From NCBI GenBank assembly GCA_963514005.1, contig OY740781.1, positions 32,736,001-32,800,000 on the forward strand: a DNA stretch of 64,000 nucleotides, read 5' to 3'. The stretch's first letter is position 1, and each line of letters opens with the position of its first letter. The DNA is from Raja brachyura (lineage: Eukaryota). Made by a program: the position numbers and the translations under genes. This document shows positions 30,148 to 60,447 of this stretch, piece after piece. The notes under the pieces were generated by a model. The model saw only the letters and a list, made by a program, of their open reading frames with translations, had not been told where the DNA came from and made no database searches.

Positions 30148-30162
30148 TTATTTATACTATTA

Positions 30163-34593: not shown

Positions 34594-34883
34594 TTTAGTT
34601 TAGTTTAAAAATACAATGCGGAAACAGGTCGTTTGGCCCACCAGGTCCTCGCCGTCCAGTGATTCCCACACAATATCACTATCCTTCACATACTAGGGAC
34701 AATTTACAATTTTACCAAGCCAATTAGCCTACAAACCTGTACGTTTTTGGAGTGTGGGAGTGTCCCAGAGAAAACCCACGCAGGGAGAACGTACAAACTC
34801 CATACAGACAACACCTGTAATCAGGATCAAACCCGGGTCTCTGGCACTGTAAGGTAGCAACTCTACCATAGTGTTACCACGCC
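34594..34883 (-). mobile_element. HE1-like V-SINE
   Basis: Reverse complement of the 8716-9024 family. Confidence 0.85.
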
Positions 34884-34988
34884 ATAACTTGAAGCATTTT
34901 CCTTCGTTCATAAATGGGATGAAGAGTAGACACTAAGTGCTGGATTAACTCAGTGGTTCAGGCAGCATCTCTGCAGATTGTGGATAGG

Positions 34989-35305
34989 TGACACAATGGC
35001 ACAGCAATAGAGTTACTGCTTGACAGCGCCAGAGACCCGGGTTCGATCCTGACTGCAGGTTCTATCTGTGTGGAGTTTGTATGTTCTCCATATGACCACC
35101 TTGGTTTTCTCCGGGTGCTCTGGTTTCACCCCATACTCCAAAGATGTCCAGGTTTGTAGGTTAATTGGCGTTGGTAAAAAGTCATATATTGTCCCTATTG
35201 TGTTGAATAGTGCTAGCGTACGGGGTTATCACTGGTCAGCACAGACTCGGTATGTCTAAGGGCCTATTTCTGCACTGTATCTCCAAAGTTCAAAGACTAA
35301 AGTCG
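34989..35305 (+). mobile_element. HE1-like V-SINE inserted in a palindromic Penelope cassette (~34928-35460)
   Basis: SINE head, ggttcgatcc and tail. Penelope arms lie on both sides. Confidence 0.85.
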
Positions 35306-36361: not shown

Positions 36362-36570
36362 AAAAAGCTGGAGTTGCTCTGCGGGACAAGCAGTATCTCT
36401 GGAGAAAAGGAAAGGGTGATGATTCAGGTCGAGACCCATCTTCAGACAAAGGGTCTCAACCCGAAACGTCACCCGTTCCTTTCTCTCCAGAGATGCTGCC
36501 TGTCCCACTGAGTTACTCCAGCATTTTGTGTCTACGGTTTAAACCAGCATCTGCAGTTCCTTCCCACACA
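36362..36570. mobile_element. Palindromic Penelope terminal-repeat cassette with hammerhead remnants on both strands
   Basis: ggtcgagacccatcttcagac (minus-strand motif) is followed by agggtctcaacccgaaacgtcaccc (plus-strand motif) between mirrored arms. Confidence 0.75.
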
Positions 36571-38366: not shown

Positions 38367-38655
38367 AGAATTTAGACTTTAGATATACAGCGCGGAAACA
38401 GGCCCTTCAGCGCCGACCAGCGATCGCCCCATACACTAACATTATCCTATACTCTAGGAACAATTTTACAACTTTCCAAAGCCAATTAACCAACAAACCT
38501 GTGTGCCTTCGGAAGAATCCAGAGCACCCGGAGAAAACCCATGCAGTCACAGGGAGAACATAAAAACTCCGTACGGACAGCAACCATAGTCAGAATTGAA
38601 CCCGGTTATCTGGCGCTGTAAGGCAGTCATCCTACTGCTGATCCACTGTACTGCT
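38367..38655 (-). mobile_element. HE1-like V-SINE
   Basis: Reverse complement of the SINE family body and tail. Confidence 0.85.
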
Positions 38656-38720
38656 CTATACTAGAGGATGTAGGTGCATAGAGGACATAAGGCAACAATG
38701 ATCTTTGTTAAGGGGACTTA

Positions 38721-39016
38721 TGGGCCTGTCCCACTTACACGACTTTTTCGCGACTGCCGGCACCCGTCATAGGTCGTTGCAGGTCATCGTTGAAAATTCA
38801 GCGGCAACCAGAAAGACGCTACGACTCTTTGGGCGACTGAGGAGACTACTCACGACCATACAGGCGACACCCTGGCGACATGTCGCTCAATAGTCGTACC
38901 TTGTTCTCTCATCTTCCCACTGGATTTTCAACATGTTGAAAATTTTCGGCAACTTGCTGCGACTCTGATGCGTGCTGGCAAGTCGCCAAAAAAATCGCGT
39001 AAGTGGGACAGGCCCA
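38721..39016. mobile_element. PIF/Harbinger-type MITE (a truncated copy starts at 36052)
   Basis: Perfect 18-bp TIR TGGGCCTGTCCCACTTAC / GTAAGTGGGACAGGCCCA, with TTA TSD at 38718-38720 and 39017-39019. Confidence 0.85.
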
Positions 39017-39150
39017 TTATTCTTTCCTTAGCCACCCTTTTTAAGTGTGTTTCTAAACATACTCACCAAGGAATTCATTTGATCCTGACTGCCTAAGTCT
39101 GATGTATGACCCACCTTCTCTTCCCCGGCCAGAGCCACAACATCTCTCAT

Positions 39151-39508
39151 CAAGTAAGTAAGTAAGTAAGTTTATTGGCCAAATATTCACATACAAGGAA
39201 TTTGCCTTGGTGCTCCGCCCACAAGTAACAACATGACAGACAGTGACAGTTACGAATGACTCAGAAAACACTAAACATTAATAATAATAAGACATTAATG
39301 ATAAAACACCATTGATGAAGCATGTGAACCAACAAAATACCAGATCAAAGGGAGGCTACAGATTTTTGGCTGTTGAGTAGAGCAACTACTCGTGGATAAA
39401 AACTGTTTTTATGTCTGGCTGTGGCAGCTTTGACAATCCGGAGTCGCCTTCCAGAGGGAAGTGATTCAAAGAGTTTGTGGCCACGGTGAGAGGGGTCAGA
39501 GATGATCA
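39151..39508 (-). mobile_element. Rex1/Babar-like LINE 3' end
   Basis: IISDPSHRGHKLFESLPSGRRLR...HKNSFYPRVVALLN with a (ttac)n tail. Confidence 0.85.
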
Positions 39509-40869
39509 ACCAGGGTTTCACAAATTTGTCAGCCTTGCCCTTCACCCTAACAGCAACATGATGCCCCTGTACTCTTATAATCTCTCTTTCAAACAGCTCT
39601 CAATGGCTATCCATGTTCAGACATATGCACGTTCTTTAGAGATACTGCCTGAACTGTTGACTCACTCAGTATCTTTTTTTTTGTAAACCAGCACTGCAGT
39701 TCCTTGATTCAACATGCTTCTGGTTATATATGATCCAGGAATAATAAGCAATTCATTTCAACACGAGAGACAAACGTTTCAATTTATCTATATTTTTCTA
39801 AACAATTGAGTTTATTGTAATATTTTAAATGTTTCGAAGTAGTTGAAAATATCCTAGTTATTTTCTTTCAGATAGTTTTTTTTTGTTTTCTTGAGATAGT
39901 TTTGAATGCTTCTCGGTGCTCAGGGATCATTCACCGCCCTTGAGAGGTTTGCCAGCCAGCAGTATTTGGCGGCATTGCTTATTTGCAGAAAATAAGTACT
40001 TTTCATCTATTTAATGGGAAGAGCTTGCCCACGACTCCATCACGTCCGCTTCTCCTTCTCAGCCTCTTCTTCTGCCTCTCCTTGTCTCTGTGTCACAACT
40101 GTGCATATTCCAAGCCTGATTCTTAAAGATCAGGGCAGCTTCAGGCAGCAAATTAACACTGGCAAATCTTGAAAAGTTCACATTTACCATAAAGGTCTGT
40201 GCCAAGCAAGAGTGGCTTGGCATTGGCAACAAGCTCTCATTCTTCACTGATAGATCACTATATTCTGATGAACAATGATGTTTTTATCTATATTATGCTA
40301 TTCTGACCAAGTTATTTTGAAATCTTAAACCTTGCATAAATGAAGGCTGATGTTTGTGGGCTTGAATATTGCCTTGACTATATTTTACACAATACTCCTT
40401 GGAATAATTTCCACTTTCATTGCAACTGTTGAGAAAATGCTTTGCACTAACACATTCTGCAAAGCGGAACTAGCATGACTAATTTATAAATGGAGTATTG
40501 ATGAGGATGGCTTTTCCTTTTAATGTGAATAGCTCTTAAGCAAGCAACAAAAAGCAACCCTTTATTAATACTGACAAGCGATGAGTCTCACGAAGAAGCA
40601 TTTCAATTACTTTGCAGAGTCACAAGAGTCAAAATCTTCAAACATTTCAATCAAGGGGAAGATAGTTGTCATGTGGTGCAGTTGAAAGCAAATGAAGTAA
40701 CATGGGAGGATGAGGATAAATCTACAAAAAATGCACATTGAAAATCCATAGTAACTTGAGAGATTTATTTCCACAAGGCTTGAGATTTTTATATCTGTTT
40801 GGGTGAAGTGAGAGTAAAAAATAATGGTCATTTAATCAATTATTTAACCACGTATTTCCAATACGATCA

Positions 40870-41213
40870 CAGAGGCAGGAAACATGTTCGCGATGTTGGG
40901 GTGTCCAGAAACAGAGACCACAGTTAAGAATAAGGGGTAAGCCATTTAGAACGGAGATGAGGAAATACTTTTTCACACAGAGAGTTGTGAGTCTGTGGAA
41001 TTCTGCCTCAGAGGGAGGTGGAGGACAGTTCTCTGGATGCTTTCAAGAGAGAGTTAGATAGATCTCTTAAAGATAGCGGAGTCAAGGGAAATGGGGGGAA
41101 GGCAGGAACGGGGTACTGATTGTGGATGATCAGCCATGATCACAGTGAATGGCGGTGCTGGCTCGAAGGGCCGAAGGGCCTACTCCTGCACCTATTGTCT
41201 ATTGTGTATTGTC
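40870..41213 (+). mobile_element. CR1 3' fragment
   Basis: Same subfamily as 23957-24328, with a ctattgt tail. Confidence 0.85.
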
Positions 41214-41611
41214 TCTTTTCTTTCTTTAACTTTTATTGTATATATGGCAAAACATGGACAGAATGGATATCTCTCATTGTAAACACGGGCTTTCCCCCTA
41301 TATCAGCACCACACTACAATGTCAAGTTTAATCCAACACAATATAAAGTTTCCTCCAGTTCGAAAGAAGTACGATACTACCACAGTGTGACAACCGCTAT
41401 GTTGTCATATGAATCATTTATCTAATGCAAGTACAATTCCAAATTTGAGACACTTTTTACCATGAAACTGAATTGCTCCTTCGCACAGGTCCTTTATGTA
41501 AAAGTTCAGGATTAAATGACATAAAATTAATATTGGAAATATTCCCAAGTTAACCCATTTATCTGATTGCATTGGCCATTTTCTTACTAATACTTGGACA
41601 TACTTCCCTTT

Positions 41612-42095
41612 GAGTCTGAAGAAGGGTCTCAACCCGAAATGTCACATATTCCTGTTCTCCAGATGCTGCCTGACCTGTTGAATGACTCCAGCATTTTGTG
41701 TCTATCTTAGGTACTGCCCCATACTGGCTTACCTTCACTTACGTGTCAGTTAGAGATGTTAACCTCATCAATGCCTAAATGCTCCATTGCAAGAGTAAGA
41801 CCACACACAAACTAGAGGAACAGCACCTCACATTCCGCTTAGGTAGCTTACAATCCAATGGTATGAACACTGAACTCTCCAATTTTACATAACTACAAAC
41901 CCTTTCCCTTTCTTCCACCCCCTACTCCCTCCTCTGTCGTCCACCTGAACTCAGGTGACCTCTCCCCTTCCCTTCCACCTATATTCCTTGCTCTAGCTTC
42001 ACAATTTGCAACTCTTCAATCCCTTCTCTAGCTTTTGCCAACCACCTGGTTCTCAAACCCCTCACCTGTATCCATCTATTACTTGCCAGGCTTTG
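41612..42095 (+). mobile_element. Penelope-like fragments (terminal repeat with hammerhead motif; GIY-YIG C-terminus and 3' UTR)
   Basis: gtctgaagaagggtctcaacccgaaatgtc at ~41614 and KLEEQHLTFRLGSLQ at ~41810-41855. Confidence 0.7.
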
Positions 42096-45044
42096 AGGGT
42101 GGAATACATTGCCCGAGGGTGTGGTAGAGACAGGTAATCTCACACTAATCAAAAAGTATCTACACAAACACTTGAATCACCAAGTCATTGAATGGTATGC
42201 ATCAAGTGCTGGTGTGTTGGATTCATGTGGATGGGACTCAATGGTTGGCATGGACGTGACGGGGTTAAAGGCCTTGTTTCTATGCTGTATAATTCTATAG
42301 CCAAGGAAACGCATTAAATTCATCACACCATCCTGGTGAATTTTAATATGGTTTTGATTAGCTCCGGAAAATAAAACTTCCCTCCACTCCTTATCACGTA
42401 TAATTTAAGTTTTTCTTCTTTTGAATTGAACAAAAACCACACAATCATAATCTAATTATTATTCAGGAGCTTGCAAAAGTACTTACAGAAAGGGAAGGCT
42501 TAATTTGTCATTTAGCACTCAGCAAAAATTTATCCTAACAACTTTAATGCTCAAGGTGATAAATATTGAATTAATTTACATGTTGTGTTAAATTCTGCAA
42601 TTGGAAAAGTAAATTGATCATTTGTGCTTTCATTACACTCCATGAAATTTAGCAATTTTCTAATGTGCCTACTCTTTTAGCACACGTATTGTTGCGGAAA
42701 CTAAGTCATACATATTTCAGTGTGGAAATGGTGCCCACCGTTTCTTCTCTTAATTATCTCAGCTGTGGTACATTTACCTTTTATCTTCCCACTGACATAT
42801 CTTTGGTCCAATTCTTGACCAAAGAATATGTGAGTGGGAAGATGAGAGATAAAGCGCCACAACTGGGGAAAGTACATTCATAGAGCTGTACTGTATGAAT
42901 TCTCCTGCCTTCTCCCTTTAACCTCTGACACCCGTACCCATAGAGTTTTATGGCACAGTGCAGAAAGGAGGCCATCAGCCCAACTTGTCCATGCCAACCA
43001 AGGTGCATACCTGACCTAATACCATTTGCCTATGTTTAGCCTAATTCCCTCTAAACCTTTCCTATCCATGTATCCTATCTGCCCAAACGTCTTTGATATG
43101 TTGTAATTCTACCTGCATCCATCACCCCCGTTCCCTACATCAACATTGTCTACATGAAATACTTCCCCCTTCAGATCCCGTTAAAACCTTTCCTTTCTCA
43201 CCTCAAATCAATGGCCTCCAGCTTTGTGGATTGGAAGTGGAAATATCAAGTAAAGGAATATGTTTCAAGAATCATGGCTCATAGGAGAAATGTGGTGGAG
43301 AAAGAGTTGAGGGAGTTAGTGGGTTAAAGTGCGGTGACATAGTGGAAGTGGAATAAAGGCTGTGGGATTACTTTAAGGAGCTGGTCATGGCTACTGTGGC
43401 TCCCCACAATATAGTGTGCCAGACAAAATGCTTTACAGATAAAGAGGGATTATTGCCTTGTGGTATTGAGTAAATAGAAACTGACATAATACCTTGTTTC
43501 ATTTGCAATTTGCATTCATTTATTGTTTCCCAAATAAATCCCATAAGAGTGAATTTAATTACGTATCTCACATTTTATTGATTTGTGAATTCTGTAAGGG
43601 CATATTTCTCCACCCAAATATCTATAATGCAGTCCCCTGTATGTATGTTATTATAATGTTAAGTGTATTATAGATTTGGTGCTTTTTTAGGGAAAGCTAG
43701 ATTTGTATGAAATCTTAAGGATGAGAGAAAGCATATAATTTCTACTTTGACTGCACTTCTTGATAGTTTTAAGAGTGGATATTTGGAGCAGATTTACCAA
43801 CGCAATTAATTAAGGTTTATCATGAGAGAATAAAAAAAAACATCACGTGTATCCAGTTCAGTTCTGAGAGCAGAGTTTAAATGATTGAAATTATTTTTTT
43901 AAACTTCACAAATGTTTTGTGATAAACTAAAGAACGATTTAAAGGATGATTTTGGTATCTGCCCACTCAGGAAGTAGTTTAAATTTGATAACCACCACAA
44001 AGGCCCTCCTGGATTACAGTTTGTGGAATCTCTAATTCAGTCGGGTGTTGTTTAATTTTAGTGTGGATGAAGTTATTCCCCAGCACAGTAGTTCTTAAAC
44101 CACCATAACCATGGACAGCTTAAAAAACATTGAACAAACATTGTACAAACATTGTGCTTAAAATTTAGTTATCACTTGTTCTGTTTTAGCTGAATTTTGC
44201 CGAAATAAATAACTTGAAACCAGGAGAAACTCTTTATCATTTGGTAAATAATTACTCAAAAGATTCATTACACAATTGAAAATGGAAGAGGAAATAGATA
44301 CATTTATCATCCATTCAAATATTATCAATGTAGCTATTTCAACATCTGAGTCCAAATGAGACCGTAATAAGTCATTTTGTGGAAGATTAGAGGTTTTTCT
44401 ACTAATCGTTTTCTGTCAATTTTGTTACCAACTACTACATTACCACCAATTTGAGTTTTTAAATGGTTGTCATGGTTACAACATGGAACTTTATTACTAT
44501 AATCAATCAAATCGCCCTAAAGAATTGTGGGAGATTTTGGCTTCTTAATGTCAATGCATTCCTATTGTTGCTCATCTCAGGGCCCTCAAATGATAAGGTT
44601 TTATTTGGTTTTATTTATTACACATATTTAATCTGCCATTTTTTTTACTTTTCATCTTTCTTAATTTCCTTGACAATATTTATTTCAATGAAATATCAGC
44701 TTTTTATACAGTGCTTCCTATTCAGCTTGCTGATTTCACTAATCACTGCCAATTTTTTGATATGGTGCCTCTTCAACCTTTCATTATTATCTGGATTCGG
44801 CTTCTTTGTGACATCTGCTGAAGCTGGTTTTCTTTAGAATCCAAATACAGACTGGTTATTTATTAATCTTAGGTCTGAGAGCAATGCCAAAATGAATATT
44901 AAGTGAACATGAACAAATGTATTCTTCATGCAGAGTTTATTTCCATATTATGGTCCTGCCTCCCAACGCTACAAACCCCCTTCACTCCTTGTTGAAGCAA
45001 CAGCCCCTTAAAAATCCAAGTATTAAATCAACATACTTTATTTG

Positions 45045-45235
45045 TGTAGGTAGGAACTGCAGATGCTGGTTTAAATCAAAGATAGACACAAAATGCTGGA
45101 GTAACTCAGCGGGACAGGCAGCATCTCTGGAGAGAAGGAATGGGTGACGTTTTGGGTCTTGGACCTAAACATCACCTATCCCTTCTCTTCAATGATGCTG
45201 CCTGTCCCCCTGAATTATTCCAGCATTTTATGTCC
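45045..45235. mobile_element. Palindromic Penelope terminal-repeat cassette
   Basis: ggaactgcagatgctggtttaaatc...aatgggtgacgttttgggtc with a mirrored arm. Confidence 0.7.
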
Positions 45236-45442
45236 ATACTTTCTTTGTGTATCTCATATTCTTTCCTACTCCTTTCCATCTGTTCACCACAGACCTGGCT
45301 GCTCACAGAGTCATGGGGAATGAGGTGCACAGGACAAAAATAGGCTGAAGGACATAAAGTGCTGGAGTAACTCAGTGCTGTAACTCAGCGGGTCAGGCAG
45401 CATCTGTGGAGAACATGAATAGGTGACGTTTCAGGTCAAGAT

Positions 45443-46194
45443 TCAGATTCAGATTCAGATTCAGAAAACTTTATTGTCTGTCGTAACAGAAAAATCTTCT
45501 TTGACGTGGCTCAACATACAACAAGACAATATACAACAGTCATCATACAACACAGCCTTCTGCGGGAACACTCAGTGTGTATAGGTCTTAAAACAAGTAT
45601 AAAGATTAGAAACTGTAAAAATAGACAAGATAAAAGTTGAAAGTTGTGGATACGTGTAAAGTGACAGTGCGTCAGGGTTAATTTGTCCATTGATCATGTA
45701 TTATTTAAACTATTTATGGCAATGGGTATGAATGAGTTTTTGTGGATGTTTTTCTTGGATAGGGGGACTTTATATCGACGGCCTGATGGCAGAAGTTGGA
45801 AGGACTTGTGCAGGGGGTGGGTGGGATCCTGTGTAATGAGGTTGGCTTTCCTTTTAACTGCCTGGGTGTGAAGTACTGACAATTGAATTTGAGTTTTGCC
45901 AGTTATTTTGCTTGCTTGATTGATGATCCGGGAAAGCTTTGATTTGTCTTTGACAGAGGTAAGGGTGAACCAGGATGTGATGTTAAAGGTGAGTACAGAT
46001 TCTATAAGTGATTTATATACAGCTGTTAAAATGTCCTGTCTGACATCAAAGCTCCTGAGTTTCCTCATCAGGAACAGGCGTTGCTGTGCCTTCTTGTACA
46101 CAGAGTCTGTGTGCTGGGAGAAGGACAGGCGGGTGTCAATCTCTGTGCCCAGGTATCTAAAGGCCTCTACCTGCTCGACTGTCTGCCCATTCAG
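45443..46194 (-). mobile_element. Rex1/Babar-like LINE 3' fragment with TSD
   Basis: ORF 45694-46197 (FRYLG..AQQRLFLMRKL..IESVLTF..DPTHPLHKSFQLLPSGRRY), a (tgaatc)n tail, and TSD CAAGAT at 45437-45442 and 46195-46200. Confidence 0.9.
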
Positions 46195-49100
46195 CAAGAT
46201 CCTTCTTCAGACTGATTGTGGTGAAGGGGAGAAAGCTGGAAAAGGAGAAACCTGGCCAAAGGGTGGCAGGTTACAGGTGGGCATCGGCGAGATGCAGAAC
46301 ATAAGCAGAACAAAGGCCAGAGAGAAGAACAGAAGGTGTGCCACAGGTTCAAGGAAAACAATCTCAGACTATCCAGTCCCTCCTCTTAACACTGGCTCTC
46401 TAGCCCAAGCCACTTCCTGTAAATCTTTTCTGCATTCTCTCCAGCTTAATCACATCCTGGAGCACGGTGACAGGAACTGTGTGCAATGCTCCAAGTGTGG
46501 CCTATCTAATAATTAGTGCAATTGTAACATAATCCTGCAACTCATGGGCTCAATGCCTTGGATGAAGAAGAAATGCACTGTTACCATTCCTTCTGTCTGC
46601 CTGTGACAACACTTTGGGGGAACTCTGTACTTGTGCCACTGAGATGTCATACCAGAAGGCTTGCACCATCGGAAGAAGCCTAATGTGAGTCACAGAATAG
46701 ATGGAGATAGAATTAAAAATTGGTGGGAAAGATCCTGCAATCTCCCTCTCAGCTCAGTTCAGCTTAGTTTATTGGCACGTGTACCGAGGTACAGTGAAAA
46801 GCTTTTATTGTGTGCTAACTGGCCAGTGGAAATACAATACATGATTACACTTGAGCCATTTACAGTGTATAGATACTGTACATGATAAGGGAATAATGTT
46901 TAGTGCAAGGTAAAGCCATTAAAGTCCGATCAAAGATAGCCCAAGGGACACCAATGAGGTAGATAGTAGTTCAGGACTGCTCTCTAATTGCCCTCTTTTT
47001 TCCCCCACAAACCTCTAGGGTGCAACTGTGGAGGCTCCAGAGATTTACCCACCTTCATGCATGTTTAAGACTCCCAATACCTTCTTGATTGCAATATCAA
47101 TATGTTTCAGGATCTCATTGTTCTCTTCCCTGAACTCACTAGCTTGCATGTCTTTTCGTTATTGCTCTTCTACAGAAAAAGCCTGTTGTGGGTCACAGAA
47201 TAAATGGAGACAGACTTAAAATCTGGTCGTTAAGCTTTGATATAATGATGATCAGTAGTTCTTCAGACATGTTTAATACCTCACAAAGAAACAAGGAGGC
47301 TCTTTGAGTACTTCATGTAATAAGGAAATGTGCTGAAAGTTATCACCAGGTAATTCTCTTCAATCTCTTGCAAATACATGGAGACAGGAAGTGGAGGTCA
47401 ACAGAAAGAGAAGGGCAAGCCCTTAGAAGACATTCCGATTTATAAAAGGACTTTCACGTCTTTGCAAAGTGCCACACAGGCAATGAATGAAGTATATGCA
47501 TTGGTGTTAAGCAATGCAAATGTGGTAGCAGAAGTACACGGGCCAAAGCCTCATAAACCGGACATGATGTAAGTGACCATTCGAACTAATTTGCTCTTAT
47601 TTACAGAGTGATAAATGTTGGCTGAGATAACCCTTGTGCAGGGAGAAAAACAAGAAGTTATTCTGCCCACCTGAACAAACACATCCTTGGCTTATTGCCT
47701 CACTAGGGGTAACTCTGAAAATGCCACACTCCATCACTATATCACTCGTAATATAAAATCATATTCTAATGTTGAAATAGTGCTATTATGATTTTGAGGC
47801 TATTACCCCATTTTTCTGATAACATTTATGTGCAGCAACGTGGGGTGGAATTTGCCTTAAAGATGCTGTAGAAAGGCATGTTCTGCTGTTGGTGGCCTAC
47901 AGATGGTACACACAATTGTACTTGGCTCAGACGGTTCTTTACACCGTGTTTGAAAGCTTCCAGCACTCACTGCCAAGGTTCAGTATGAATAATGACCAGC
48001 TGGGCGAGTGGCTGAAGGGCAACTACTGCCTAGCAACTACACTTCAAAGAAGTGTTCATATCTTCAAGGAAGTATAGAGGAAGACCCGAATTAAAAGGAA
48101 AAATCTGCAGTTCTTGAAAGATTAATATCTAGTGGTCTGCGATCCATTACAGGGTTGATTTTGCTAATGGAAAACAGCTTATCTTTAATAAATTTGAAAT
48201 ATATGAACATTTTTATTTTTAATGCACCCTATCTCGGAGTAGGCACAGCTTCATAGCTTTCAATTTAGACAATATGAAAATGGAAATAAATTTGAGCTAC
48301 TTAACGGGTCAATTGTCAAATAATCCATCAACTATGATGGTGCTCAGTCAAATGGATCACAAAGATCTCAAGATAGATCCATGTTCTATGTCGTTGTTGT
48401 TGATCTCAGAAGGGCTAGCAAACTTCTGAGAGGAAAAGTTTGCCCATTCCTGGACACTTGCCCATAACTCTTGTGGAAAGTCAGAATATGGACTTGTCAT
48501 AAGAGCTGATTATAATGTCTGCTGCCACTTATTAACTGGGTGCCATAACAGAAGGCTTGCACCATCAGAAGAAGTTTACCATGAGTCATAGAATAGATGG
48601 ATATAGAATAATAAATTGGTGAGAACGAGTAAATGTTTTTCATAATCTGGGTTGTTATACGACCAGTCTGAATAAGGGTCCCAACCCAAAACATCACCCA
48701 TCCTTTTTCTCCAGAGATACTGCCTGACCCGGTGAGTTACTCCAGCAATCTGTGTCTATCAGTGAAATCAAGTGCTCTTATTGGGCCACCGAAAGACTGA
48801 TAGCATCAAATGCCAATTTCTTGCAGAAACACATAAATATATTAACTTATTTATATTCCACCCCCTGCATAATATGAAAGAGTTTAAGAAAATTCATCAT
48901 GATCTTCCAATTTAAAAGTTGTTTCTCCCTACTTTGTTCATGTGAAATCATGCCTCACAAATTGTATGCTTTTTGTTTTAAGAGATCAAGGTGGATGATC
49001 ACAGTAATTTTCTCAGAGTAGGGCTAGCAAAAACTAGGGCATCGGTTTAACCCAAGAGCAGAAAAATGTAAAGGGGACCTGAGGGGCATGTTTTTCACAT

Positions 49101-49996
49101 AGAGAAAAGTGGGTAAATGGAATGAGCTGCCAGAGGAAGTGGTAGAGATGGGTATAATTACAATGTTTAAAATACATTTGTATATGTTCATGGATAGGCA
49201 AAGTTTTGAGGGGTATGGGGCAATTACGGGCAAATGGGACCAGCTCATGAAGTGTTGTGGATGAGTTGTGCCTATGGGCCTGTTCCTGTGTTATTGATCT
49301 TCATGACACTTCAACCTGCTTCAATTGGTTCAGAATACCCATGGAAAGTGATTTTCTCAACAACCCACTCTCAATTAATGGCCAGATTGAAAATATTTAT
49401 TGCCATACCTCCAGTTATTTACTTCATAGATTATTTTATTGTCCTGGCGGTAATGTATATGTACTGTTGGAAAATATCATGCTTTTTCCATCATCTGTCG
49501 CCCTATATAAAGCACAGTGGATTCTCTTTTATCTTCTTGCTTCAAGAACCTTTAAATCTCACTTTTTAGTGGGTGAAGTGCAGCCATAATTATCAATACT
49601 GTGGCCTGAAATAATCCTGGAACAGTGAGGCTGAAGAATAAAACAGTTTGTGTGGGAAGGAACTGCAGATGCTGGTTTTCACTGACGATAGACTAAAAAT
49701 GTTGGAGCAGCTCAGCTCAGCATCTCTGGAGAAAAGGACTAGGTGACATTTCGGGTTTGAAGAATGGGTCTACAATCAAAAGGACCCATTTATTCTAACT
49801 CTATGTTTTCTATGTGAAAATCAGTTTTCCATCCGTGCTAATATACTTTCTCAAATACTATGGTCCCTGACTCCTCATTTACTCCCTTGCCTAATAAACT
49901 GGGAGTGCATTTACCAGAGGATCGCGGTGTTTTGCAAGTTGGCTTACAACCATATCCCCAGGGCAATAGGCGATGGGCAATAAATACTCATCTGTC

Positions 49997-50478
49997 AATG
50001 TGAAGCACTTCAACTCCCCCTCCCATTCCGTATCCGACCTCTCAGTCCTGGGCCTCCTCCACGGCCAGAGTGAGCAACACCGCAAGTTGGAGGAACAGCA
50101 CCTCATATTCCGCTTGGGGAGTCTGCATCCTCTGGGCTTAAACATTGAATTTTCTCAATCCTGTTAACCCTTGCTGTTTCCTCCCCTTCCCACCTCTCCC
50201 TCAGACCTCGGGCCCTGGCATTCCTTCTCTCTATCTCTCCCCCACCAAAGTCGCACTAGCTTCTCATTTTCACACTACAAACAGCTTACAATGGCCTGTT
50301 TCCTTTATCATCGATACTTTTTTGCATATCTTTCATTCATTGTTCTTTATCTCTCCACATCACCGTCTATATCTCTCGTTTCCCTGATCCCTAACCAATC
50401 TGAAGAAGGGTCTCGACCCGAAACGTCGCCTATCTCCTTTGCTCCTTAGATGCTGCTGCACTCGCTGAGTTTCTCCAT
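49997..50478 (+). mobile_element. Penelope-like element 3' end: GIY-YIG C-terminus, 3' UTR and terminal repeat
   Basis: KHFNSPSHSVSDLSVLGLLHGQSEQHRKLEEQHLIFRLGSLHPLGLNIEF, stop at 50167, then a pyrimidine-rich UTR and the terminal repeat. Confidence 0.85.
50400..50427 (+). ncRNA. Minimal type I hammerhead-ribozyme-like motif of the Penelope terminal repeat
   Basis: CUGAAGA (50400-06), A, stem II GGGU-CUCG-ACCC, GAAA (50420-23), palindromic ACGU stem III and GUC cleavage triplet (50425-27). Stem I pairing is poor in this copy. Confidence 0.65.
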
Positions 50479-51625
50479 CTGTCATTGATGTTCAGATCCC
50501 ACAAATAAACTAAAATAAAACTGTTGTGTTTCTTACAACAGTTTCAGGCATCTTCAGTGCCTGTGATATGCTTTAGGCATCCTGCAAGTATTCTTTCTAA
50601 TGTAAAAGCAGTAAAGGTCAGGCTTCAGCTGTGAGAAGAGAAACAGAAGGAATGTTTTAGGTCAAAGATCCTACAGCTAACCTTTTTCTGCTTTTGTCAA
50701 GACTTTTTCTGTCTTCCTTTATTAACAACCTAACAATATGCTTTACCATTGCTTCTCAAGTACAATCAGCATCAGTATTGTGGATCTTAGCTTTCCTTTG
50801 GCTTTGGTCTAGCATATTTGTGACCTTGTGCATGGTGTGCAGTGTGTGGCCTAGTTCTTTGAACTCGTAAGGCCTTTTGTTTTGCAAATGGATGCCTCTC
50901 CCAACACTAACTTTGTCAAACATCAAATAGGTAGAGCAAGAAGCACTAGGGGAAGTCAGTGGGTCAAGTAGCTTCTGAGGAGGGAATGAATGGATGATGT
51001 TTTGAGTTGGAACCCTTCTTCAGTCTGAAGATTCCAGCATCTGCAGTCTTGTGTGTCATCAAATGGGTGTAATTGCTCATCTACGGTGCAGTTATTAACA
51101 AAACAATAGCGTCTATTTATTTAATGTCTTTGAGACAGGAAGGGGAAACCCAAGAGTAACTGAAGAAAGGTCTTGACCCGAAATGTAATCTATCCATGTT
51201 CTCCAGCGATGCTGCCTGACCCGTTGAGTTACTCTAGTCACTTTGTATTATTTTGTGTAACTGGATTATGTTGGCTGAAGATCAGGAGCTAAAGTCTTCC
51301 TATGGTGTGGCATGCTGTGTTCCAATGCCATCCAATTACTTCCTATCACTATCCTTATTTTGCCAGGCCACTCTCACAAAACCGAAGCAGATTTTGTGCA
51401 TCATGTACAATGGCTTGCAAAAGTTTTCATACCCCTTGAACTTTTCCACATTTTGTCATGTTACAACCACAAACGTAAATGTATTTTATTGGGATTTTAT
51501 GTGATAGACCAACACAAAGTGGTGCATAATTTTGAAGTGGAAGGAAAATGATACATGGTTTCCAAATTGTATTACAAATAAAAAGCTGAAAAGTGTGGCG
51601 TGCAAAAGTATTCAGCCTCCCTGAG

Positions 51626-52644
51626 TCAATACTTTGTAGAACCACCTTTCGCTGCAATTACAGCTGCAAGTCTTTTGGGGTATGTCTCTACCAGCTTTGC
51701 ACATCTAGGGACTGACATTTTTGCCCATTTTTCTTTGCAAAATAGCTCAAGCTCAGTCAGATTGGAAGGAGACCGTCTGTGAACAGCAATTTTCAAGTCT
51801 TGCCAGAGATTCTCAATTAGATTTAGGTCTGGACTTTGACTGGGCCATTCTAACACATGAATATGCTTTGATCTAAACCATTCCATTGTAGCCCTGGCTG
51901 TATGTTTAGGGTCGTTGTCCTGCTGGAAGGTGAACCTCCACCCCAGTCTCAAGTCTTTTGCAGACTCTAACAGGTTTTCTTCCAAGATTGCCCTGTATTT
52001 GGCTCCATCCATCTTCCCATCAAATCTGACCAGCTTCCCTGTCCCTGCTGAAGAAAAGCATCCCCACAGCATGATGCTGACACCACCATGTTTCACAGCG
52101 GGGATGGTGCATTCAGGGTGATGTGCAGTGTTAGTTTTCCGCCACAGATAGCGTTTTGCATTTAGGCCAAAAACTTCAATTTTGGTCTCATCAGACCAGA
52201 GCACCTTCCTCCACATGTTTGCTGTGTCCCCCACATGACTTGTGGCAAACTGCAAACGGGGCTTCTTATGGCTTTATTTCAACAATGGCTTTCTTCTTGC
52301 CACTCTTCCATAAAGGCCCGATTTGTGGAGTGCACCACTAATAGTTGTCCTGTGGACAGATTCTCCCACCTGAGCTGTCGATCTCTGCAGCTCCTCCAGA
52401 GTTACCATGGGCCTCTTGGCTGCTTCTCTGGTCAATACTCTCCTTGCCCGGCCTATCAGTTTAGGTGGACGGCCAAGTCTTGGTAGGTTTGCAGTTGTGG
52501 CATACTCTTTCCATTTTCGGATGATGGATTGAACAGTGCTCCATGAGTTGTTCAAAGCTTGGGATATTTTTTATAACCCAACCCTGCTTTAAACTTCTCC
52601 GCAACTTTATCCCTGACCTGTCAGGTGTGTTCCTTGGGCTTCAT
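51626..52644 (-). pseudogene. Tc1 transposase pseudogene
   Basis: ATG at 52644 (MKPKEH), HTH with GRPPKL, WSDETK, QQDNDPKH, SPDLNLIE (34 residues between second D and E). One frameshift near the N-terminus and an in-frame stop at 52274-52276. Confidence 0.93.
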
Positions 52645-52753
52645 GATGCTGTTTGTTCACTAATGTTCTCTAACAAACCTCGGAGGCCTTCACAGAACAG
52701 CTGTATTTATACTGAAATTAGATTACACACAAGTGGACTCTATTTACTAATTA

Positions 52754-55497
52754 ACCATATAACATATAACCATATAACAATTACAGCACGGAAACAGGCC
52801 TTCTCGGCCCTTCCGGTCCGTGCCGACCATTTATTTTCCCCTAGTCCCATCTACCTGCACTCAGACCATACCCCTCTATTCCCTTCCCGTCCATATACCT
52901 CTCCACTTTACTTTTAAATGTTAAAAACGATCCTGCCTCCACCACTTCTGCAGGAAGATCATTCCACACAGCCACCACTCTCTGAGTAAAGAAGTTCCCC
53001 CTCATGTTACCCCTAAACTTCTGTCCCTTAATTCTCATGTCATGCCCTCTTGTTTGAATCTTTCCTACCCTCAATGGGAAAAGCTTATCCACATCAACTC
53101 TGTCTATCCCTTTCATCATTTTAAAGACCTCAATCAAGTCCCCCCTTAACCTTCTGCGCTCCAAAGAATAAAGACCTAACTTGTTCAACCTTTCTCTGTA
53201 ACATAGTTGCTGGAACCCAGGCAACATTCTAGTAAATCCCCTCTGTACTCTCTCTATTTTGTTGACATCCTTCCTATAATTAGGCAACCAAAATTGTACA
53301 CTATACTCCAGAATTGGTCTTACCAATGCCTTGTACAATTTTAACATTACTTCCCTACTCCTATATTCAATGCTCTGATTTATAAAGGCTAGCACACGAA
53401 AAGCTTTCTTTACCACCCTATCTACATGCGATTCCACCTTCAGGGAACTATGCACAGTTATTCCTAGATCCCTCTGTTCCACAGCATTTCTCAATTCCCT
53501 ACCATTTACCATGTACGTCCTATTTTGATTTGTCCTGCCAAGATGTAGCACCTCACACTTATCAGCATTAAACTCCATCTGCCATCTTTCAGCCCACTCT
53601 TCCAAATGGCCCAAATCTCTGTAGACTTCGAAAATCAACTTCATTATCCACAGCACCCCCTATCTTAGTATCATCTGCATACTTACTTATCCAATTTTCC
53701 ACCCCATCATCTAGATCATTGATGTACATGACAAACAACAGTGGACCCAACACAGATCCCTGAGGCACCCCACTGGTCACCGGCTTCCAACCTGAGAAAC
53801 AGCCATCCACCATTACTCTCTGGCATCTCCCATTCAGCCACTGTTGAATCCATCTTGCTACTCCGCCATTAACACCCAAAGATTGAACCTTCTTAACCAA
53901 CCTTCCATGGGGAACCTTGTCAAAGGCCTTACTGAAATCCATATAGACAACATCCACTGCTTTACCCTCATCAATTTCCCTAGTAACCTCTTCAAAAAAT
54001 TCAAGAAGGTTTGTCAAACATGACCTTCCAGGCACAAATCCATGTTGATTGTTCTTGATCAGACCCTGTTTATCCAGATGCTTATATATATTATCTCTAA
54101 GTATCCTTTCCATTAATTTGCCCACCACTGACGTCAAACTAATATGTCTATAATTGCTAGGTTTATTCTTTGAACCCTTTTTAAACAATGGAACAACATG
54201 CGCAGTACGCCAATCCTCCGGCACTATTTCCGTTTCTAATGACATTTGAAATATTTCTGTCATAGCCCCTGCTATTTCTACACTAATTTCCCTCAATGTT
54301 GTAGGGAATATCCTGTCTGGACCTGGAGACTTATCCACTTTTATATTTTTCAAAAGTGTCAGTACTTCCTCCTCTTTGAATCTCATAGTTTCCATAACTA
54401 CTCTACTTTTTTCCCTTACCTCACAGAGTTCAATATCCTTCTCCTTGATGAATACCGAAGAAAAGGAATTGTTCAATATCTCCCCCATTTCTTTTGGCTC
54501 TGCAGATAGCTGTCCATTCTGGCTCACTAATGGTCCAATTTTATCCCTCGTTAGCCTTTTGCTATTAATATAGCTGTAGAAATCCTTTGGATTTACTTTC
54601 ACCTTTCTTGCCAAAGCAACCTCATATCTTCTTTTAGCTTTTCTTATTTCTTTCTTAAGATTCTTTTTACATTCCTTATACTCATCTAGCACCTCATTTA
54701 CTCCATGCCTCCTATAAATATTGTAGATATCTCTCTTTTTTCGAACCAAGTGTCCAATTTCCCTTGAAAACCATGGCTCTTTCCGATTTTTACTATTTCC
54801 TTTCAACCGAACAGGGACATAAAGATTCTGTACTCTTACAATTTCCCCTTTTAATGTCCTCCATTTCTCTTCTACATCCTTCCCATAAAACAATATGTCC
54901 CAATTCACTCCTTTTAAATCATTACGCATTCCCTCAAAGTTAGCCTTTCTCCAATCAAAAATTTCTACCCTAGGTCCAGTTCTGACTCTCTCCATAATTA
55001 TATTGAAACTAATGGTATTGTGATCACTGGTCCCGAAGTGCTCACCAACGCATACCTCCATCACCTGACCTGCCTCATTTCCTAACAGGAGGTCCAGCAC
55101 TGCCCCTTCTCTGGTCGATACCTCTATGTATTGCTGCAAAAAACTATCCTGCACACATTTAACAAACTCCAAACCATCCAGCCCATTTACAGAATGTGTT
55201 TCCCAGTCTATTTTTGGAAAATTGAAATCTCCCACAATCACTACCTTGTGCTTACTACTAATATCTGCTATCTCCTTACATATTAGCTCTTCCAATTCTT
55301 GCTCCCCATTTGTTGGTCTATAATACACCCCTAAAAGTGTTGCTACACCGTTCCCACTTCTCAGTTCCACCCAAATAGCCTCCCTAGAGGAGCCCTCTAA
55401 TCTATCCTGCCAAAGCACTGCTGTAATATCTTCTCTGACAAGCAATGCAACCCCTCCACCTCTGGTCCCTCCAATTCTATCACACCTGAAGCAACAA
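52754..55497 (-). mobile_element. Young 5'-truncated CR1 LINE with nearly intact ORF2, nested in Tc1
   Basis: ORFs 53589-55445 (618 aa, VGDFN, TSDH, SKYADDTK) and 52841-53656 (271 aa) are joined by one frameshift. (tatatggt)n tail and TSD AATTA at 52749-52753 and 55498-55502. Confidence 0.95.
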
Positions 55498-55989
55498 AAT
55501 TAGGTGACTTCTGAAGGCAATTGGTTGCACCGGATTTTATTTAGGAGTATCAGAGTAAAGGGGGCTGAATACTTTTGCACGCCACACTTTTCAGTTTTTT
55601 ATTTGTAAAAAAATTTGAAAACTATATATCATTTTCCTTCCACTTCACAATTATGCGCTACTTTGTGTTGGTCTATCACATAAAATCCCAATAAAATACA
55701 TTTACGTTTGTGGTTGTAACGTGACAAAATGTGGAAAAGTTCAAGGGGTATGAAAACTTTTGCAAGCCACTGTACTTTGTTTGCAGATAATGGAAGTGAG
55801 GTTTGGACTTTTCTGGTGATTTATTTCATTTTATTTCGTGACTAAGAGCTAAAACGGTTTTGTTTTGAACACTATCAATCTGTATCATGACAACAACAAC
55901 CACAGAACAAGGGTCTGTTGAGAAGTTGCTGGCTAACCAAACAATCTGAAGTTATAGTCCCCACTACTCCTTACTCTAGTGATTCTTGA

Positions 55990-56762
55990 ACAATCACACT
56001 ATAATGCCTCCACAATCTCTAAAACTACATGGGGTGTAGTCCATCTGACCAGGTGACTTATCCATCTTCAGACCTTACAACATCCCAAGCATCCTCTCCT
56101 TAATTCCACTAACCTCTGCCCATATCTATATGCCAAAGGTTTATCCAGGAGTCTCTTGAATTCCATTATCATATCTGTTTCTTCCACTGCCTGTGGCAGC
56201 GCATTCTAGCCACTCACCACCTTCTGTGTATAAAACATGTCCCGCACATCTCCATTAAACTCCATTAAACTTCGCCCCTTTAACAAACCTATACCCCCTG
56301 GGGAAAGGGTTGTGACTGTCTAATCTATCTATGCTTTTTAATATTTTGCGGAGAAAACAATCGAATTCTGTCGAAGCTCACCCTGGAGCTAATACCCCCT
56401 AATCCATGTATTCCAAAGCACCCACATCCTTCTGTAATGGGATGACCAGAACTGCACGCAATACTTCAAATGCTGCATAACCAGCTGCACCATGACTTCC
56501 TGGTTCTTATATTCAATGCCCTGCACAAGCACACCATATGTGTTCTTTCCCACTCTATCTCCTTGTGTTGCCACTTTCAGGGAGCTATGGACATTTACCC
56601 CAAGATTTCTCTACATCAATGATGTTTAGTCATGCCGTTAGTTGTATGTTTTCCCCTTACACTTGACCCCCACAGTGCAACATCTCACACTTGCTCAGAT
56701 TAACCTCCAGCTGCCATTTCACCACCCATTTATTTCGCTGATCTATATCCCGTCATATCTTC
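55990..56762 (-). mobile_element. Old CR1 fragments
   Basis: ORF 56389-56574 (QGIEYKNQEVM..HLKYCVQFWS) and CR1 3' signature sequence. Confidence 0.75.
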
Positions 56763-56989
56763 TTGTCACTTGTCAGACTTTGTCCCATTCTCATCTCTCT
56801 TCCAGCTTTCTCTCCTTCCCACCACAATCAATCCTTCACTGTCCCTTCATTTTGATTAAAAGTTCTAACACCCTGACATCAGCCTAATGCTTTTGCATGT
56901 ACATATAAATACAGCAGTTCCTGCACATGCACCTTCAAGAGATCACTTCATTACTTTTATTTATCTTTCTCTTTTCTCAACTATATTTA

Positions 56990-57416
56990 CTGCTGAACTT
57001 TACATCGGCGGCGCTGAACTTTACATCGGGAGCTTCCATCCTAGTGGTGGAGCTCCATCCGGCGTGGCCTTGTTGGCTTCGGAAGCCACGGACTCCAGTA
57101 AGAGGCAGCCGTTCCAGGTGTCCCAAGCCACTGAGAGGGTGCTGCCGACGCCGGAGCACCATCACCCGACGAGAACGGCCTGGAACATCGGGCCCCGTAG
57201 CAGCGACTGCGGAGGCCTGAATAGGCCCGACTATGGGTGAACTGGGGATGGGACTGGACTTTGCTGCCCACAGTGGGAACCATTGTGGGGGGATGTTTTT
57301 ATGTCTACTGTTAAATCCTATGATGTTGTGTCTTATCTTTATCTATGTGCTGCATGGCAAGACAAATTTCACTACACCATTTGGTGTACGTGACAATAAA
57401 TGTCCTTTGTCCTTTG
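56990..57416 (+). repeat. GC-rich short retroposon with a Rex1-like 3' tail
   Basis: CpG-rich body ending aatttcactacaccatttggtgtacgtgacaataaatg(tcctttg)n. Confidence 0.5.
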
Positions 57417-59254
57417 TTGTCCTTTGCTTACACCTTTCCAGTTATAATATGGGATAAATATCTCCGGGTCTAAGAGTTTGCAGTTTCAAACTCATTCCAG
57501 CAACACGCTTCAATCTCGCAGGCAAGGCACTCAAGATTTTTTCATCTCTGGTGACTGTCCAACCATCTGCCTATCAACCCACCCACCCCTCATCTTTATC
57601 CACCTATCACTCTCCAGGCATTGTCAAGCCCCTCCTCTCTTACAGTTTTCTTCTCCCCCTCACAATTAGTCTGAAGAAGGGTCCCAACCTGAAATGTCAG
57701 CTAATACGTTCTCCAGTGATGCTGCCTGACTTGCTGAGTTACTCCAGCACTTTGTATCTTTTTTGCATGCCAGCATCTGCAGGTCTTGTTACTTGATGAA
57801 ATCTGTCCTGTCTGCACAGTAAGCTCCAATGCTAAAGCAGATCCTGACGCATGCAAACAAATACCTCTCTTTCAACTGCAATTTTACATGCTTTCTTGAT
57901 ATGGTCACTTGTATAGTGCAAGTTTGACAAAAGAATCCATCCACGGGATGTCTAGCATTAAATCCTATATCTTCAATTTCCTCCCAATTATCTGGGATCC
58001 CACATCTCCCAAAGGTCTGTCCGTCCTGCTTAACACCTGTGTGTGTGTGTGTACAAGACAACTTATTGTCCACTTCACCAAAATGGCAGGCAATCCACTT
58101 GCAGCAAATGAGCCTGCATGCTCTGCCTTCCAAATCGAATAAACAGAAAATGATGGAAAAACCCAGCCAGCCAGACCACAGAAACAGAGTTAATGTTTCA
58201 GATTTTAACTCCTTCATTTAACTCCGTTTCCCTTCCCACAGAACAGTCTGAAGAAGGGTCTCGACCTGAAACTTCACCCATTCCTTCTCTCCAGAGATGC
58301 TGCCTGTCCCGCTGATTTACTCCAGCATTGTGTGTCTATCCCTTCCTGCAGATGCAGCCTGACCTGCTACGTATTTCCAGAATTCTCTGTTTTATTTTTT
58401 GATTTCTAGCATCAGCGTTTTGATTTTGATTTTTTGAAGTGCCTGCAGTATGGTTGTTTTTCTAGTCTTCTTTGCAGAAATGTGTACTCCATTGTGGATG
58501 GGGCAATGATGAACGATCGGGAAAGCTATTGGTTGTCTTTCAATAGATTTTGTGCTCTACAACATTAATCAGACCATATTGTAATAACAACTTGTCTTGT
58601 CCAATAACAACTCCCCTTATCCAACCCGGAATGGTCCAGTACTGAAAGCCAAGAGTGTTCATTCAAAATGACTATCATTATTTGATCCTGCAAGCAGACT
58701 ATATTTAATAGCAAAAAGACAAAAGAAGGCTGGTTCATCAGCAATAGCTACCTGCAATCTGTGTAATTGTCTCTGATATCGTGAAGCTATGCTTCAGTGA
58801 CTATAATTACAGCTATTAGCTGTTGCATTTAGTTGCTGCTTTAGCTCAGGCTAGCTACTGGTGCTGAGACTCTACATTTGTACCAGTTTAAAGCGGCGCT
58901 CGGGAGAATATTTCAGTCTTTTTCAGGCAACAGAAATCATTGACAGTGTTATGAACTCCACAAATTGCAAATGGAGGCACAAGGAACCGCATATGCTGAG
59001 ATTAGTTTATTTAATTCCAGCATCCACAGACTGTTGTGCCTCCTTGATGGGGAACCAGTTGTTTTTCAATACATGTAGACCATTAATACTTCCTGCCATT
59101 GGAAATATTCCAATGTGCAGACACCTTTCATGTTTCAAACCTCAGAATTACATAAGAGTAATAAAAGATCAACTGTCACCCAAATATTCATTCACTTATG
59201 TTTCACGGCACCAACCTTTGTTGAGGGGTGAGTGGTGGGGATAATTCAGTTGTG

Positions 59255-59626
59255 CGACACAGTAGCGCAGTGGTAGAGTTGCTGCTTTGCAGCGTCAGGG
59301 ACCTGGGTTCAATCCTGACCATGGCTGCTTGTCTGTACAGAGTTTATATATTCTCCCGATGACCAGCGTGTGTTTTCCCTGTGATCTCCAATTTCCTCCC
59401 ACACTCCAAAGACGCACAGGTCTGCAAGTTAATTGGCCTGGTATAATTGTAAAGTACCCCTGGTGTGTGCACGGGTTGTGTTCAGCATGATGGTGGAGTT
59501 TAGATCATCTTGTACGTGTAAATACAATGATAATGTCAGTGTGCAGGAATTGAATTGCTGGTCGGCGTGGACTCGGTGGGCCGAAGGGCCTGTTTCCGTG
59601 CTGTATCTCTAAACTAAACTAAACTA
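59255..59626 (+). mobile_element. HE1-like V-SINE with an internal foreign insertion
   Basis: SINE head, ggttcaatcc and a (taaac)n tail. About 70 bp of non-SINE sequence sits at ~59468-59538. Confidence 0.85.
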
Positions 59627-60447
59627 ATGTTGCACAGCAGGAACCTTTGTTGAAGGGTGAGTGATGGAGATTATTCAGCACACAAGGACTGAAGAAATGG
59701 AAGCAGTATTAAGCCATTTGGGTCTTCACGCTTACACAACCACCCATCAAAATCATGGCTGATCCTCTATCTCAACATCATTTATTAGGTAGACTGGGCA
59801 GTAATTAACAAGGTGGCCCATTTACATGTACAGTGACTGATGTTTTGTTCCTTCATGGATAGGATTTTCAATGCACGGATTGTGTTCAGCATGATGGTGG
59901 AGTTTAGTGCGTACATTAATAGAGTCATATTGTACGTGCATATAGTATGATATCAGAAATTGTATCAGATAATTTTTAGGGTTAGGCTGATCTTCTGAAA
60001 AACAAAATTCAGTGAGGTTGAAAGCATCGCTCTGAGAGAGCTGGTGAAAACTCTTGACATTCACCAACTAATGATGAAATTATTAGCTTTCATCTTTAAT
60101 GATGATAGCTAATAATTTGGAGGCCCGTTAGTGCAGTTAGCTTGAGATGATTCAACATTAAAACCCTGCACAAATGCAAAAATATTACTTTGTAAATCAA
60201 CAACAAAGGCGTTTTGAACAAAACCTGAGCTCTGCCTTTCTTCCCACAGATGCAGCGTGACCTGCTGACTATCCCCAGCAGTTTCTGTTTTGAGTAGATG
60301 TTTTACCTCGTTGCTTTCAGTGTAGTTTGCTAAATCATTCCCCTCTCCCCTTCTTTTCCAATGGAACAGATTATATGAAGGGTTACAGGTTAGACCTTTT
60401 CTATGTATGACTCATGATAGTTTGCAAAACTAATGAAATGATGGAAC

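What the first reader, a model, noticed from the sequence alone, without database searches (positions are those of the whole stretch)
50400..50427. High-copy hammerhead-ribozyme motif of a Penelope family dispersed through the DCC intron
Seen: an intact hammerhead core CUGAAGA-A-[GGGU CUCG ACCC]-GAAA-CGUC about 230 nt downstream of a GIY-YIG ORF stop. Variant or partial copies occur at ~4257, 7747 and 7801 (-), 17971, 19718, 21888, 30464, 30815 (-), 34522, 35347, 36450, 41614, 45147 (-), 48668, 51160, 57671 and 58248. Established: Penelope-like elements carry minimal type I hammerheads with a palindromic ACGU stem III that cleave as dimers. Inference: a very abundant chondrichthyan repeat is ribozyme-bearing, and sense copies inside a long neuronal pre-mRNA could self-cleave or be selected to lose activity. 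Most copies here do carry core substitutions (GAAA to AAAA, GUC to AUC/UUC). Stem I is weak in these copies, so activity is unproven.
Basis: partly seen in the sequence, partly recalled or inferred. Interest (0 to 1): 0.7.

Follow-up and report, generated by a model that had tools for sequence, protein, structure and literature searches.

The report
Penelope hammerhead debris in DCC intron
This is one of about 50,000 identical copies of a tiny ribozyme-shaped motif already known from Penelope-type jumping genes, and its copies inside DCC and five other long genes decay at the same rate on both strands, so they likely do not cut the host RNA to any degree that matters.

Summary
The motif is real. 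Window 50400-50427 is an exact minimal type I hammerhead core, 233 nt after the stop of a 475-bp, 5'-truncated, TSD-flanked Neptune-type Penelope-like element in a DCC intron, in sense orientation. All 17 of 17 listed copies exist. The 28-mer occurs 50,608 times in the genome (control 0). A distant Neptune relative carries the published Acropora motif, with compensatory changes in helices I and II, so the fold is constrained in source elements. Helix I is only 2 bp in the family and is broken in this copy. The host-selection idea fails. Core changes are CpG decay. A sense deficit of intact copies in DCC (1/46 vs 7/38) did not replicate in five other long genes (17/113 vs 25/126; all hits 200 vs 220). 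Side result: 105 of 163 copies start about 1-5 nt before the core and almost none at the cut site. This suggests the RNA starts there and is copied uncut. This scan noted the same family and the same start point before, in this genome and others. Verdict: new member of a known kind, low interest.

The parts
50400..50427 (+). Minimal type I hammerhead core: C3-A9, unpaired A, 4-bp stem II with 4-nt loop, GAAA, palindromic ACGU, C17 (predicted cut after 50427)
   Evidence: matches the descriptor of PMC4209133
50397..50399 (+). 5' strand of helix I; family AGT, here AAT (G2.2>A breaks the G-C pair). Also the inferred RNA start of the family (A at 50397)
50428..50429 (+). 3' strand of the 2-bp helix I (G1.1, C1.2)
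50001..50475 (+). 5'-truncated Neptune-type Penelope-like insertion (end of endonuclease ORF, pLTR, hammerhead, 3' hairpin part)
   Evidence: 97% identical to 39 other scored copies out of 3,445 candidates; bounded by a TSD
50003..50167 (+). Last 54 codons and stop of the RT-endonuclease ORF
   Evidence: no Pfam hit for this piece alone
50168..50396 (+). Pyrimidine-rich pLTR spacer, variable in length (about 100-260 nt) between subfamilies
49989..50000 (+). Left target-site duplication (12 bp, one mismatch to the right copy)
   Evidence: (9-bp exact core), extended by reading
50476..50487 (+). Right target-site duplication
2671..2721 (+). Short DCC exon (start of a fibronectin III domain); fixes + as the sense strand; ends approximate
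4165..60292 (.). Range holding the 32 family hits in the window (18 +, 14 -), including head-to-head pairs near 4250, 19712, 30840, 36445 and 45155

Best explanation
The motif is the minimal hammerhead in the terminal repeat (pLTR) of a very abundant Neptune-type Penelope-like retrotransposon, and the copies in the DCC intron are likely inert insertions that decay neutrally. Shown: the motif, the parent element (3,965-bp unit, one 1,192-aa RT-endonuclease ORF, tandem arrays, inverted 5' copies, tail), structural covariation with a distant relative, CpG-driven decay, and no strand bias in five replication genes. Inferred: in source elements the motif is kept because it can fold as a weak dimer or protein-assisted ribozyme, as reported for other PLEs. 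Reverse transcription starts internally, about 65 or about 101 nt past the cut site, and runs over the uncut motif. A lone intronic copy has at most 2 bp of helix I and no same-strand partner next to it, so it would rarely cut.
For: Full unit and five motifs in a head-to-tail array. Intact ORF in L109. RVT_1 and GIY-YIG hits in that order. 3' ends cluster at 62-68 and 101-102 nt past the cut site, like the two RT start sites and tail in PMC11167929. Compensatory pairs G-C>C-G in helix I and U-A>C-G in stem II against L255/L256; the L255 motif equals the published Acropora Neptune row. Core CpG decay equals other CpG decay. Replication set: hits 200 sense vs 220 antisense (p=0.35), core intact 47/113 vs 54/126, fully intact 17/113 vs 25/126 (p=0.40), flank divergence 0.081 vs 0.081. 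Only 5 of 523 hits start within columns 32-36 around the cut site, the lowest density. The predicted hammerhead dimer lies 8.5 to 18 kcal/mol above two free monomers for the array unit and 15 to 24 for the window copy.
Against: In DCC alone, fully intact copies are 1/46 sense vs 7/38 antisense (p=0.02), and sense copies are more diverged. Pooled over six genes the figure is 18/159 vs 32/164 (p=0.046; OR 0.53, CI 0.28-0.98). The replication CI (OR 0.36-1.41) does not exclude a two-fold deficit. Exact 28-mers are 10 sense vs 16 antisense (p=0.33). Nearest-neighbour folding ignores tertiary contacts and proteins. Pfam scores are below the curated cut-offs. No RT tree was built. Conservation covers the whole 90-nt block, not only the catalytic bases (core 1/11 vs flank 21/62 columns differing among subfamily consensuses, p=0.16).
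Confidence: 0.85

Rival explanations
1. Sense intronic copies cut host pre-mRNA often enough (as dimers between copies, or with protein help) that intact ones are weakly selected against.
For: DCC 1/46 vs 7/38. Pooled p=0.046. Antisense has more fully intact copies than sense in 4 of 6 genes by count, equal in 1, fewer in 1. Xenopus retrozymes are depleted from introns in bioRxiv 2026.07.22.740005.
Against: No replication in five genes. Core non-CpG substitution is 0.058 sense vs 0.056 antisense. The DCC effect tracks flank divergence, so it is not core-specific. The pooled test includes the discovery set.
Confidence: 0.1
2. The block is no longer a ribozyme in this lineage. It is kept as a promoter, protein-binding or RT-start signal, and the hammerhead shape is a relic.
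For: Helix I is 2 bp, one pair a wobble in the young subfamily. Stem II probability is at most 0.09 in monomer folds. Templates look uncut. In the Anolis PLE, cleavage was not needed for insertion in vitro (PMC11167929). Downstream non-hammerhead blocks are as conserved.
Against: Subfamily changes fall mostly on tolerated sites: N7, loop II, C17>U, and 1.1 A/G against U2.1. Compensatory pairs exist against the distant relative. D. virilis has a 2-bp helix I and cleaved when helix III was extended (PMC4209133).
Confidence: 0.3
3. An intron ending at the pyrimidine tract plus CAG just before the core is spliced out and supplies a longer helix I, as proposed for D. virilis Penelope.
For: Pyrimidine tract and CAG are kept in 42 of 55 copies with native upstream DNA, across subfamilies. 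Precedent in PMC4209133 and PMC2377424 (passages).
Against: By eye, no shared upstream exon in the 200 listed copies with non-native letters before the core or in 56 copies with unique flanks. I saw no donor site with a complementary exon end in the unit (by eye). The one GT..AG skip listed came only from run X19 (kind not on record; taken as DNA from its size), with the letters between not known.
Confidence: 0.07

Closest known systems
[quoted passage not shown]
   Same: Same core, unpaired base after A9, G10.1-C11.1 pair, 4-bp stem II with 4-nt loop, C-G palindrome, position in the pLTR, dispersed solo and opposite-strand copies. The relative L255 carries exactly the Acropora row.
   Different: Helix I is 2 bp here against 3 bp in Acropora. 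There are 50,608 exact copies here against about 4,000 (coelacanth) and 9,000 (Xenopus) min-HHRs in that paper. No shark or skate name was found in its supplement file 2; file 1 could not be searched.
Neptune-clade EN+ Penelope-like elements (Craig et al. 2021, PMC8557442, passages)
   Same: RT followed by a C-terminal GIY-YIG in one ORF, CX4CxxC linker, partial tandems, inverted 5' copies, a tail of about 35 bp, heavy 5' truncation.
   Different: Most copies are only about 90-130 bp and share a sharp 5' start at the motif's edge; the passages read do not describe this.
Poseidon element of Anolis (PAc), Frangieh et al. 2024 (PMC11167929)
   Same: Two internal RT start sites framing the tail; uncut RNA is the main template; the hammerhead cuts only with protein.
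   Different: Different clade. In PAc the ORF starts in stem II; here the ATG lies 163 nt past C3.
Non-LTR retrozymes (bioRxiv 2026.07.22.740005)
   Same: PLE-derived, type I hammerhead, reported in one chondrichthyan genome.
   Different: Retrozymes are short tandem repeats with a hammerhead in each unit; the window copies are solo, inverted pairs or ORF-bearing truncations.

Membership tests
PLE minimal hammerhead (min-HHR) | Core CUGANGA...GAAA...UH | tested here: met
PLE minimal hammerhead (min-HHR) | Unpaired base between 9 and 10.1, and G10.1-C11.1 pair | tested here: met
PLE minimal hammerhead (min-HHR) | Palindromic 15.2/16.2, no loop III | tested here: met
   CG in 44 of 63 descriptor hits; 17 of the other 19 are CpG-type changes (CA 13, TG 4)
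PLE minimal hammerhead (min-HHR) | Helix I, family level (2-6 bp in the published rows) | tested here: met
   2 bp in 44 of 63 hits; compensatory G-C>C-G and a third pair in the distant relative
PLE minimal hammerhead (min-HHR) | Helix I in the window copy at 50400 | tested here: not met
   G2.2>A leaves one U-G pair; this copy is a decayed member
PLE minimal hammerhead (min-HHR) | Lies in the pLTR of a PLE | tested here: met
PLE minimal hammerhead (min-HHR) | Self-cleavage as a dimer | not testable with these tools
   folding only; all runs laid were contigs, which cannot show RNA ends
Rfam hammerhead families | Covariance-model hit | tested here: not met
Neptune-clade PLE | One ORF with RT then C-terminal GIY-YIG | tested here: met
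   1,192-aa ORF in L109; Pfam RVT_1 E 5e-4 and GIY-YIG E 1.4e-3 on the array unit, both under the curated cut-off
Neptune-clade PLE | CX2-5CxxC linker between RT and EN | tested here: met
   C-X4-C-X2-C in the translations; criterion from PMC8557442, which names a Zn-finger-like linker for Nematis too
Neptune-clade PLE | Tandem pLTR layout, inverted 5' copy, 30-40 bp tail | tested here: met
Neptune-clade PLE | Placement in the RT phylogeny | not tested
   no reference PLE proteins were on hand; the EN is 54% identical to L255, whose motif equals the Acropora Neptune row
Non-LTR retrozyme | Short tandem units, each with a hammerhead | tested here: not met
   only 11 of 163 copies have a short direct duplication upstream; the array found has a coding 3,965-bp unit
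Host-selected intronic ribozyme | Strand bias or core-specific change in sense copies | tested here: not met
   a weak effect is not excluded

The most novel reading that the evidence does not exclude
The element's RNA starts at the A three bases before C3, in an initiator-like context, so the hammerhead is the first 31 nt of the transcript and cutting would remove the cap. Internal reverse transcription from the first copy of the start hairpin runs off this uncut 5' end and deposits 90-130-bp stubs, on the order of a million per genome. The genome would then be a base-resolution record of where a Neptune PLE starts transcription and reverse transcription. The tail can also pair back onto the core and would switch the ribozyme off.
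Probability: 0.45. Interest if true: 0.5.

Novelty: new member of a known kind. Interest (0 to 1): 0.25.

Why it matters
As it stands it extends a known motif to an abundant vertebrate family with an unusually high count (50,608 exact copies). It also gives a useful negative: long genes carry hundreds of such motifs per megabase on both strands with no sign of purging, which argues that minimal PLE hammerheads are nearly silent outside their own RNP. If the start-site reading holds, it bears on the open question of what PLE hammerheads are for (cap removal or a switch, not trimming of the template) and names the exact RNA to test.

Tried and rejected
Rfam search, whole window and local: no hammerhead hit; the weak miRNA hits come from head-to-head pairs. 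Selection on sense copies: seen in DCC, lost in replication. Splice-made helix I: no shared exon upstream. Template 5' ends made by cleavage: no peak at the cut site; alignment ends are fuzzy, so rare cutting is not excluded. Cap-derived G at the 5' junction: mixed. Before GT starts, 55 of 100 listed rows have G (counted by eye; expected 35.5%), but several are explained by internal microhomology. Before AGT starts, 19 of the first 50 of 100 listed rows have G (by eye; expected 35%; p=0.66). Only 12 of 265 copies gave an exact TSD candidate of 9 bp or more, some of them spurious. Sequencing runs: only assembled contigs were served, RNA status mostly guessed, so expression, ends and strand are not shown; the lack of listed variants in the core in four other organisms is biased by the word index. 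A crude exon scan missed the DCC exon; a composition scan found it. Lunse et al. 2017 was not held and is known here only through the review PMC6765202 (passages); it may list cartilaginous fish. The L256 row had wrong coordinates and was redone. Searches for a prior description in sharks or skates listed none beyond the bioRxiv retrozyme survey, whose supplements are closed.

Full report
1. Observation. The 28 bases at 50400-50427 are as described and fit the min-HHR consensus of Cervera and De la Pena 2014 (PMC4209133; I read parts 1-2 of 4 of the text and parts 1-2 of 3 of supplement file 2). An ORF remnant ends at 50165-50167, 233 nt upstream. The insertion spans 50001-50475 between two 12-bp direct repeats with one mismatch. 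All 17 of 17 listed copies are found on the stated strand. The profile finds 32 hits in the window; 17 cover the core, and 8 of those 17 keep all 11 core bases. Rfam has no hammerhead hit. A descriptor finds 63 hits in 1.464 Mb and none in three shuffles. The exact 28-mer occurs 25,374 + 25,234 times in the 2.70-Gb genome, with the control at 0. Scaling 569 profile hits in 1.464 Mb of long genes gives about one million copies; this is an extrapolation.

2. Host. A short exon at about 2671-2721 matches DCC best. Cytoplasmic-domain exons lie 115-160 kb downstream on + and match the DCC peptide. Ig- and fibronectin-type exons lie upstream on + (recognised by recalled motifs). So + is sense, and the 464 kb analysed lie inside DCC. 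That the animal is a cartilaginous fish is inferred, not tested.

3. Parent element. The copy is 97% identical to the best 39 other copies of 3,445 candidates. Walking upstream led to a head-to-tail array with a 3,965-bp unit and five motifs, and to a copy with one 1,192-aa ORF (L109). Pfam gives RT then GIY-YIG, both below the cut-off. A C-X4-C-X2-C linker, inverted 5' copies and a tail of about 35 bp (3' ends at 62-68 and 101-102 nt past the cut site) fit Neptune-type PLEs (PMC8557442, passages) and the two internal RT starts shown for the Anolis element (PMC11167929, parts 1-2 of 4). No tree was built.

4. Is the fold real? In the family, helix I is 2 bp: U2.1 with A or G, and G2.2-C1.2 (44 of 63 descriptor hits). 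The window copy has lost the G, so it is the wrong copy to assay. Subfamilies whose spacers run from about 100 to 260 nt keep the same block. A metagenome relative with a 54% identical endonuclease has the same core with C-G for G-C in helix I, a third pair, and C-G for U-A in stem II. This is one comparison of lineages, not many events. Its motif equals the published Acropora Neptune row. Against a purely catalytic reading, downstream blocks are as well kept (core 1/11 vs flank 21/62 variable columns, p=0.16). Folding puts the active dimer 8.5 to 18 kcal/mol above two free monomers for the array unit and 15 to 24 for the window copy, without tertiary or protein terms. Published min-HHRs cut weakly as dimers or only with the element's protein.

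5. Selection in introns. DCC gave a hint: 81 sense and 68 antisense hits, but fully intact copies 1/46 against 7/38 (p=0.02), with sense flanks more diverged. I then took 200 kb from each of five other long genes, three on - and two on +. Their bodies were inferred from same-strand clusters of laminin G or CUB exons. Result: 200 vs 220 hits, core intact 47/113 vs 54/126, fully intact 17/113 vs 25/126 (p=0.40), core non-CpG change 0.058 vs 0.056, flank change 0.081 vs 0.081. Hits that did not cover the core (246 of 569) were left out of the intactness counts. Pooled with DCC the fully intact test is p=0.046, driven by the discovery set; the replication interval (OR 0.36-1.41) leaves room for a modest deficit. 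No intergenic control was taken.

6. Mechanism. Most likely the source elements keep a weak, dimer- or protein-dependent hammerhead; reverse transcription starts inside the RNA and copies the motif uncut; and the resulting stubs are inert. Uncut templates are supported by only 5 of 523 hits starting around the cut site. Of 163 core-bearing copies, 105 have non-native DNA just upstream. Among the 56 with unique flanks, native letters hold at -1 (48), -2 (39) and -3 (39), and fall at -4 (21). Genome-wide, 10,909 and 15,065 copies match patterns with a non-native letter at -4 or -3 (these include some point mutants of native flanks). A transcription start at the A at -3 fits this best (initiator consensus recalled, not tested); an RT stop at a folded or protein-bound 5' domain is the alternative. 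Evidence for a cap-derived G is mixed (see Tried and rejected). A splice-made helix I found no support.

7. Relation to what is known. It works like, and at family level is, a PLE min-HHR; the window copy is a decayed member. It is not a retrozyme. bioRxiv 2026.07.22.740005 (parts 1-2 of 5 and passages) already reports PLE-derived hammerhead repeats in one chondrichthyan; its supplements are closed and may cover this family. Lunse et al. 2017 was not held. Earlier notes of this scan (59 fit in this genome) describe the same family and the same start point. I had written that reading before opening them. They led me to the TSD test, one named Acropora as the closest row, and one claims rare in vivo cutting, which my start histogram does not show but cannot exclude. 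They are not independent support.

8. Verdict. Real, known in kind, very abundant; the intronic-selection idea is not supported. Interest 0.25. The start-site reading has probability 0.45 and would deserve 0.5.

Noticed in passing
G000:C18, about 46,360,000-46,377,200 (L091-L093): Head-to-tail array of a 3,965-bp PLE unit, over 99% identical between units, with five hammerheads; the ORF is split over two frames in each full unit.
   Followed up: partly
464 kb of DCC; in the window near 4250, 19712, 30840, 36445, 45155: 52 of 149 copies sit in 26 head-to-head pairs that would fold into long hairpins and hide the motif; some are centred on the small palindrome just before C3.
   Followed up: partly
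L091:5249-5380: The stretch from the inferred RNA start to the end of the tail folds as one rod in which the tail pairs with the core strand (z -1.5, not significant).
   Followed up: partly
window 51405-55775: Tc1/mariner-like transposon with 223-bp inverted ends, interrupted by a CR1-type LINE (family names recalled).
   Followed up: no
window 62075-63613 (-): Broken RT and tyrosine-recombinase frames, DIRS-like by recalled motifs.
   Followed up: no
window 26963-28297 (-): Broken integrase- and RNase H-like frames of an LTR-type or retroviral-like remnant, by recalled motifs; observed only.
   Followed up: no
window 17292-17741: Perfect 225-bp tandem duplication; recent duplication or assembly artefact.
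   Followed up: no
window 5937-6465 (-) and 41782-41846 (+): Older, diverged Neptune endonuclease fragments.
   Followed up: partly
window 7683-7834 (-): Two motif copies 54 nt apart on one strand, both with G12>A; same-strand stutters like this are the only layout that could give a dimer in cis.
   Followed up: no
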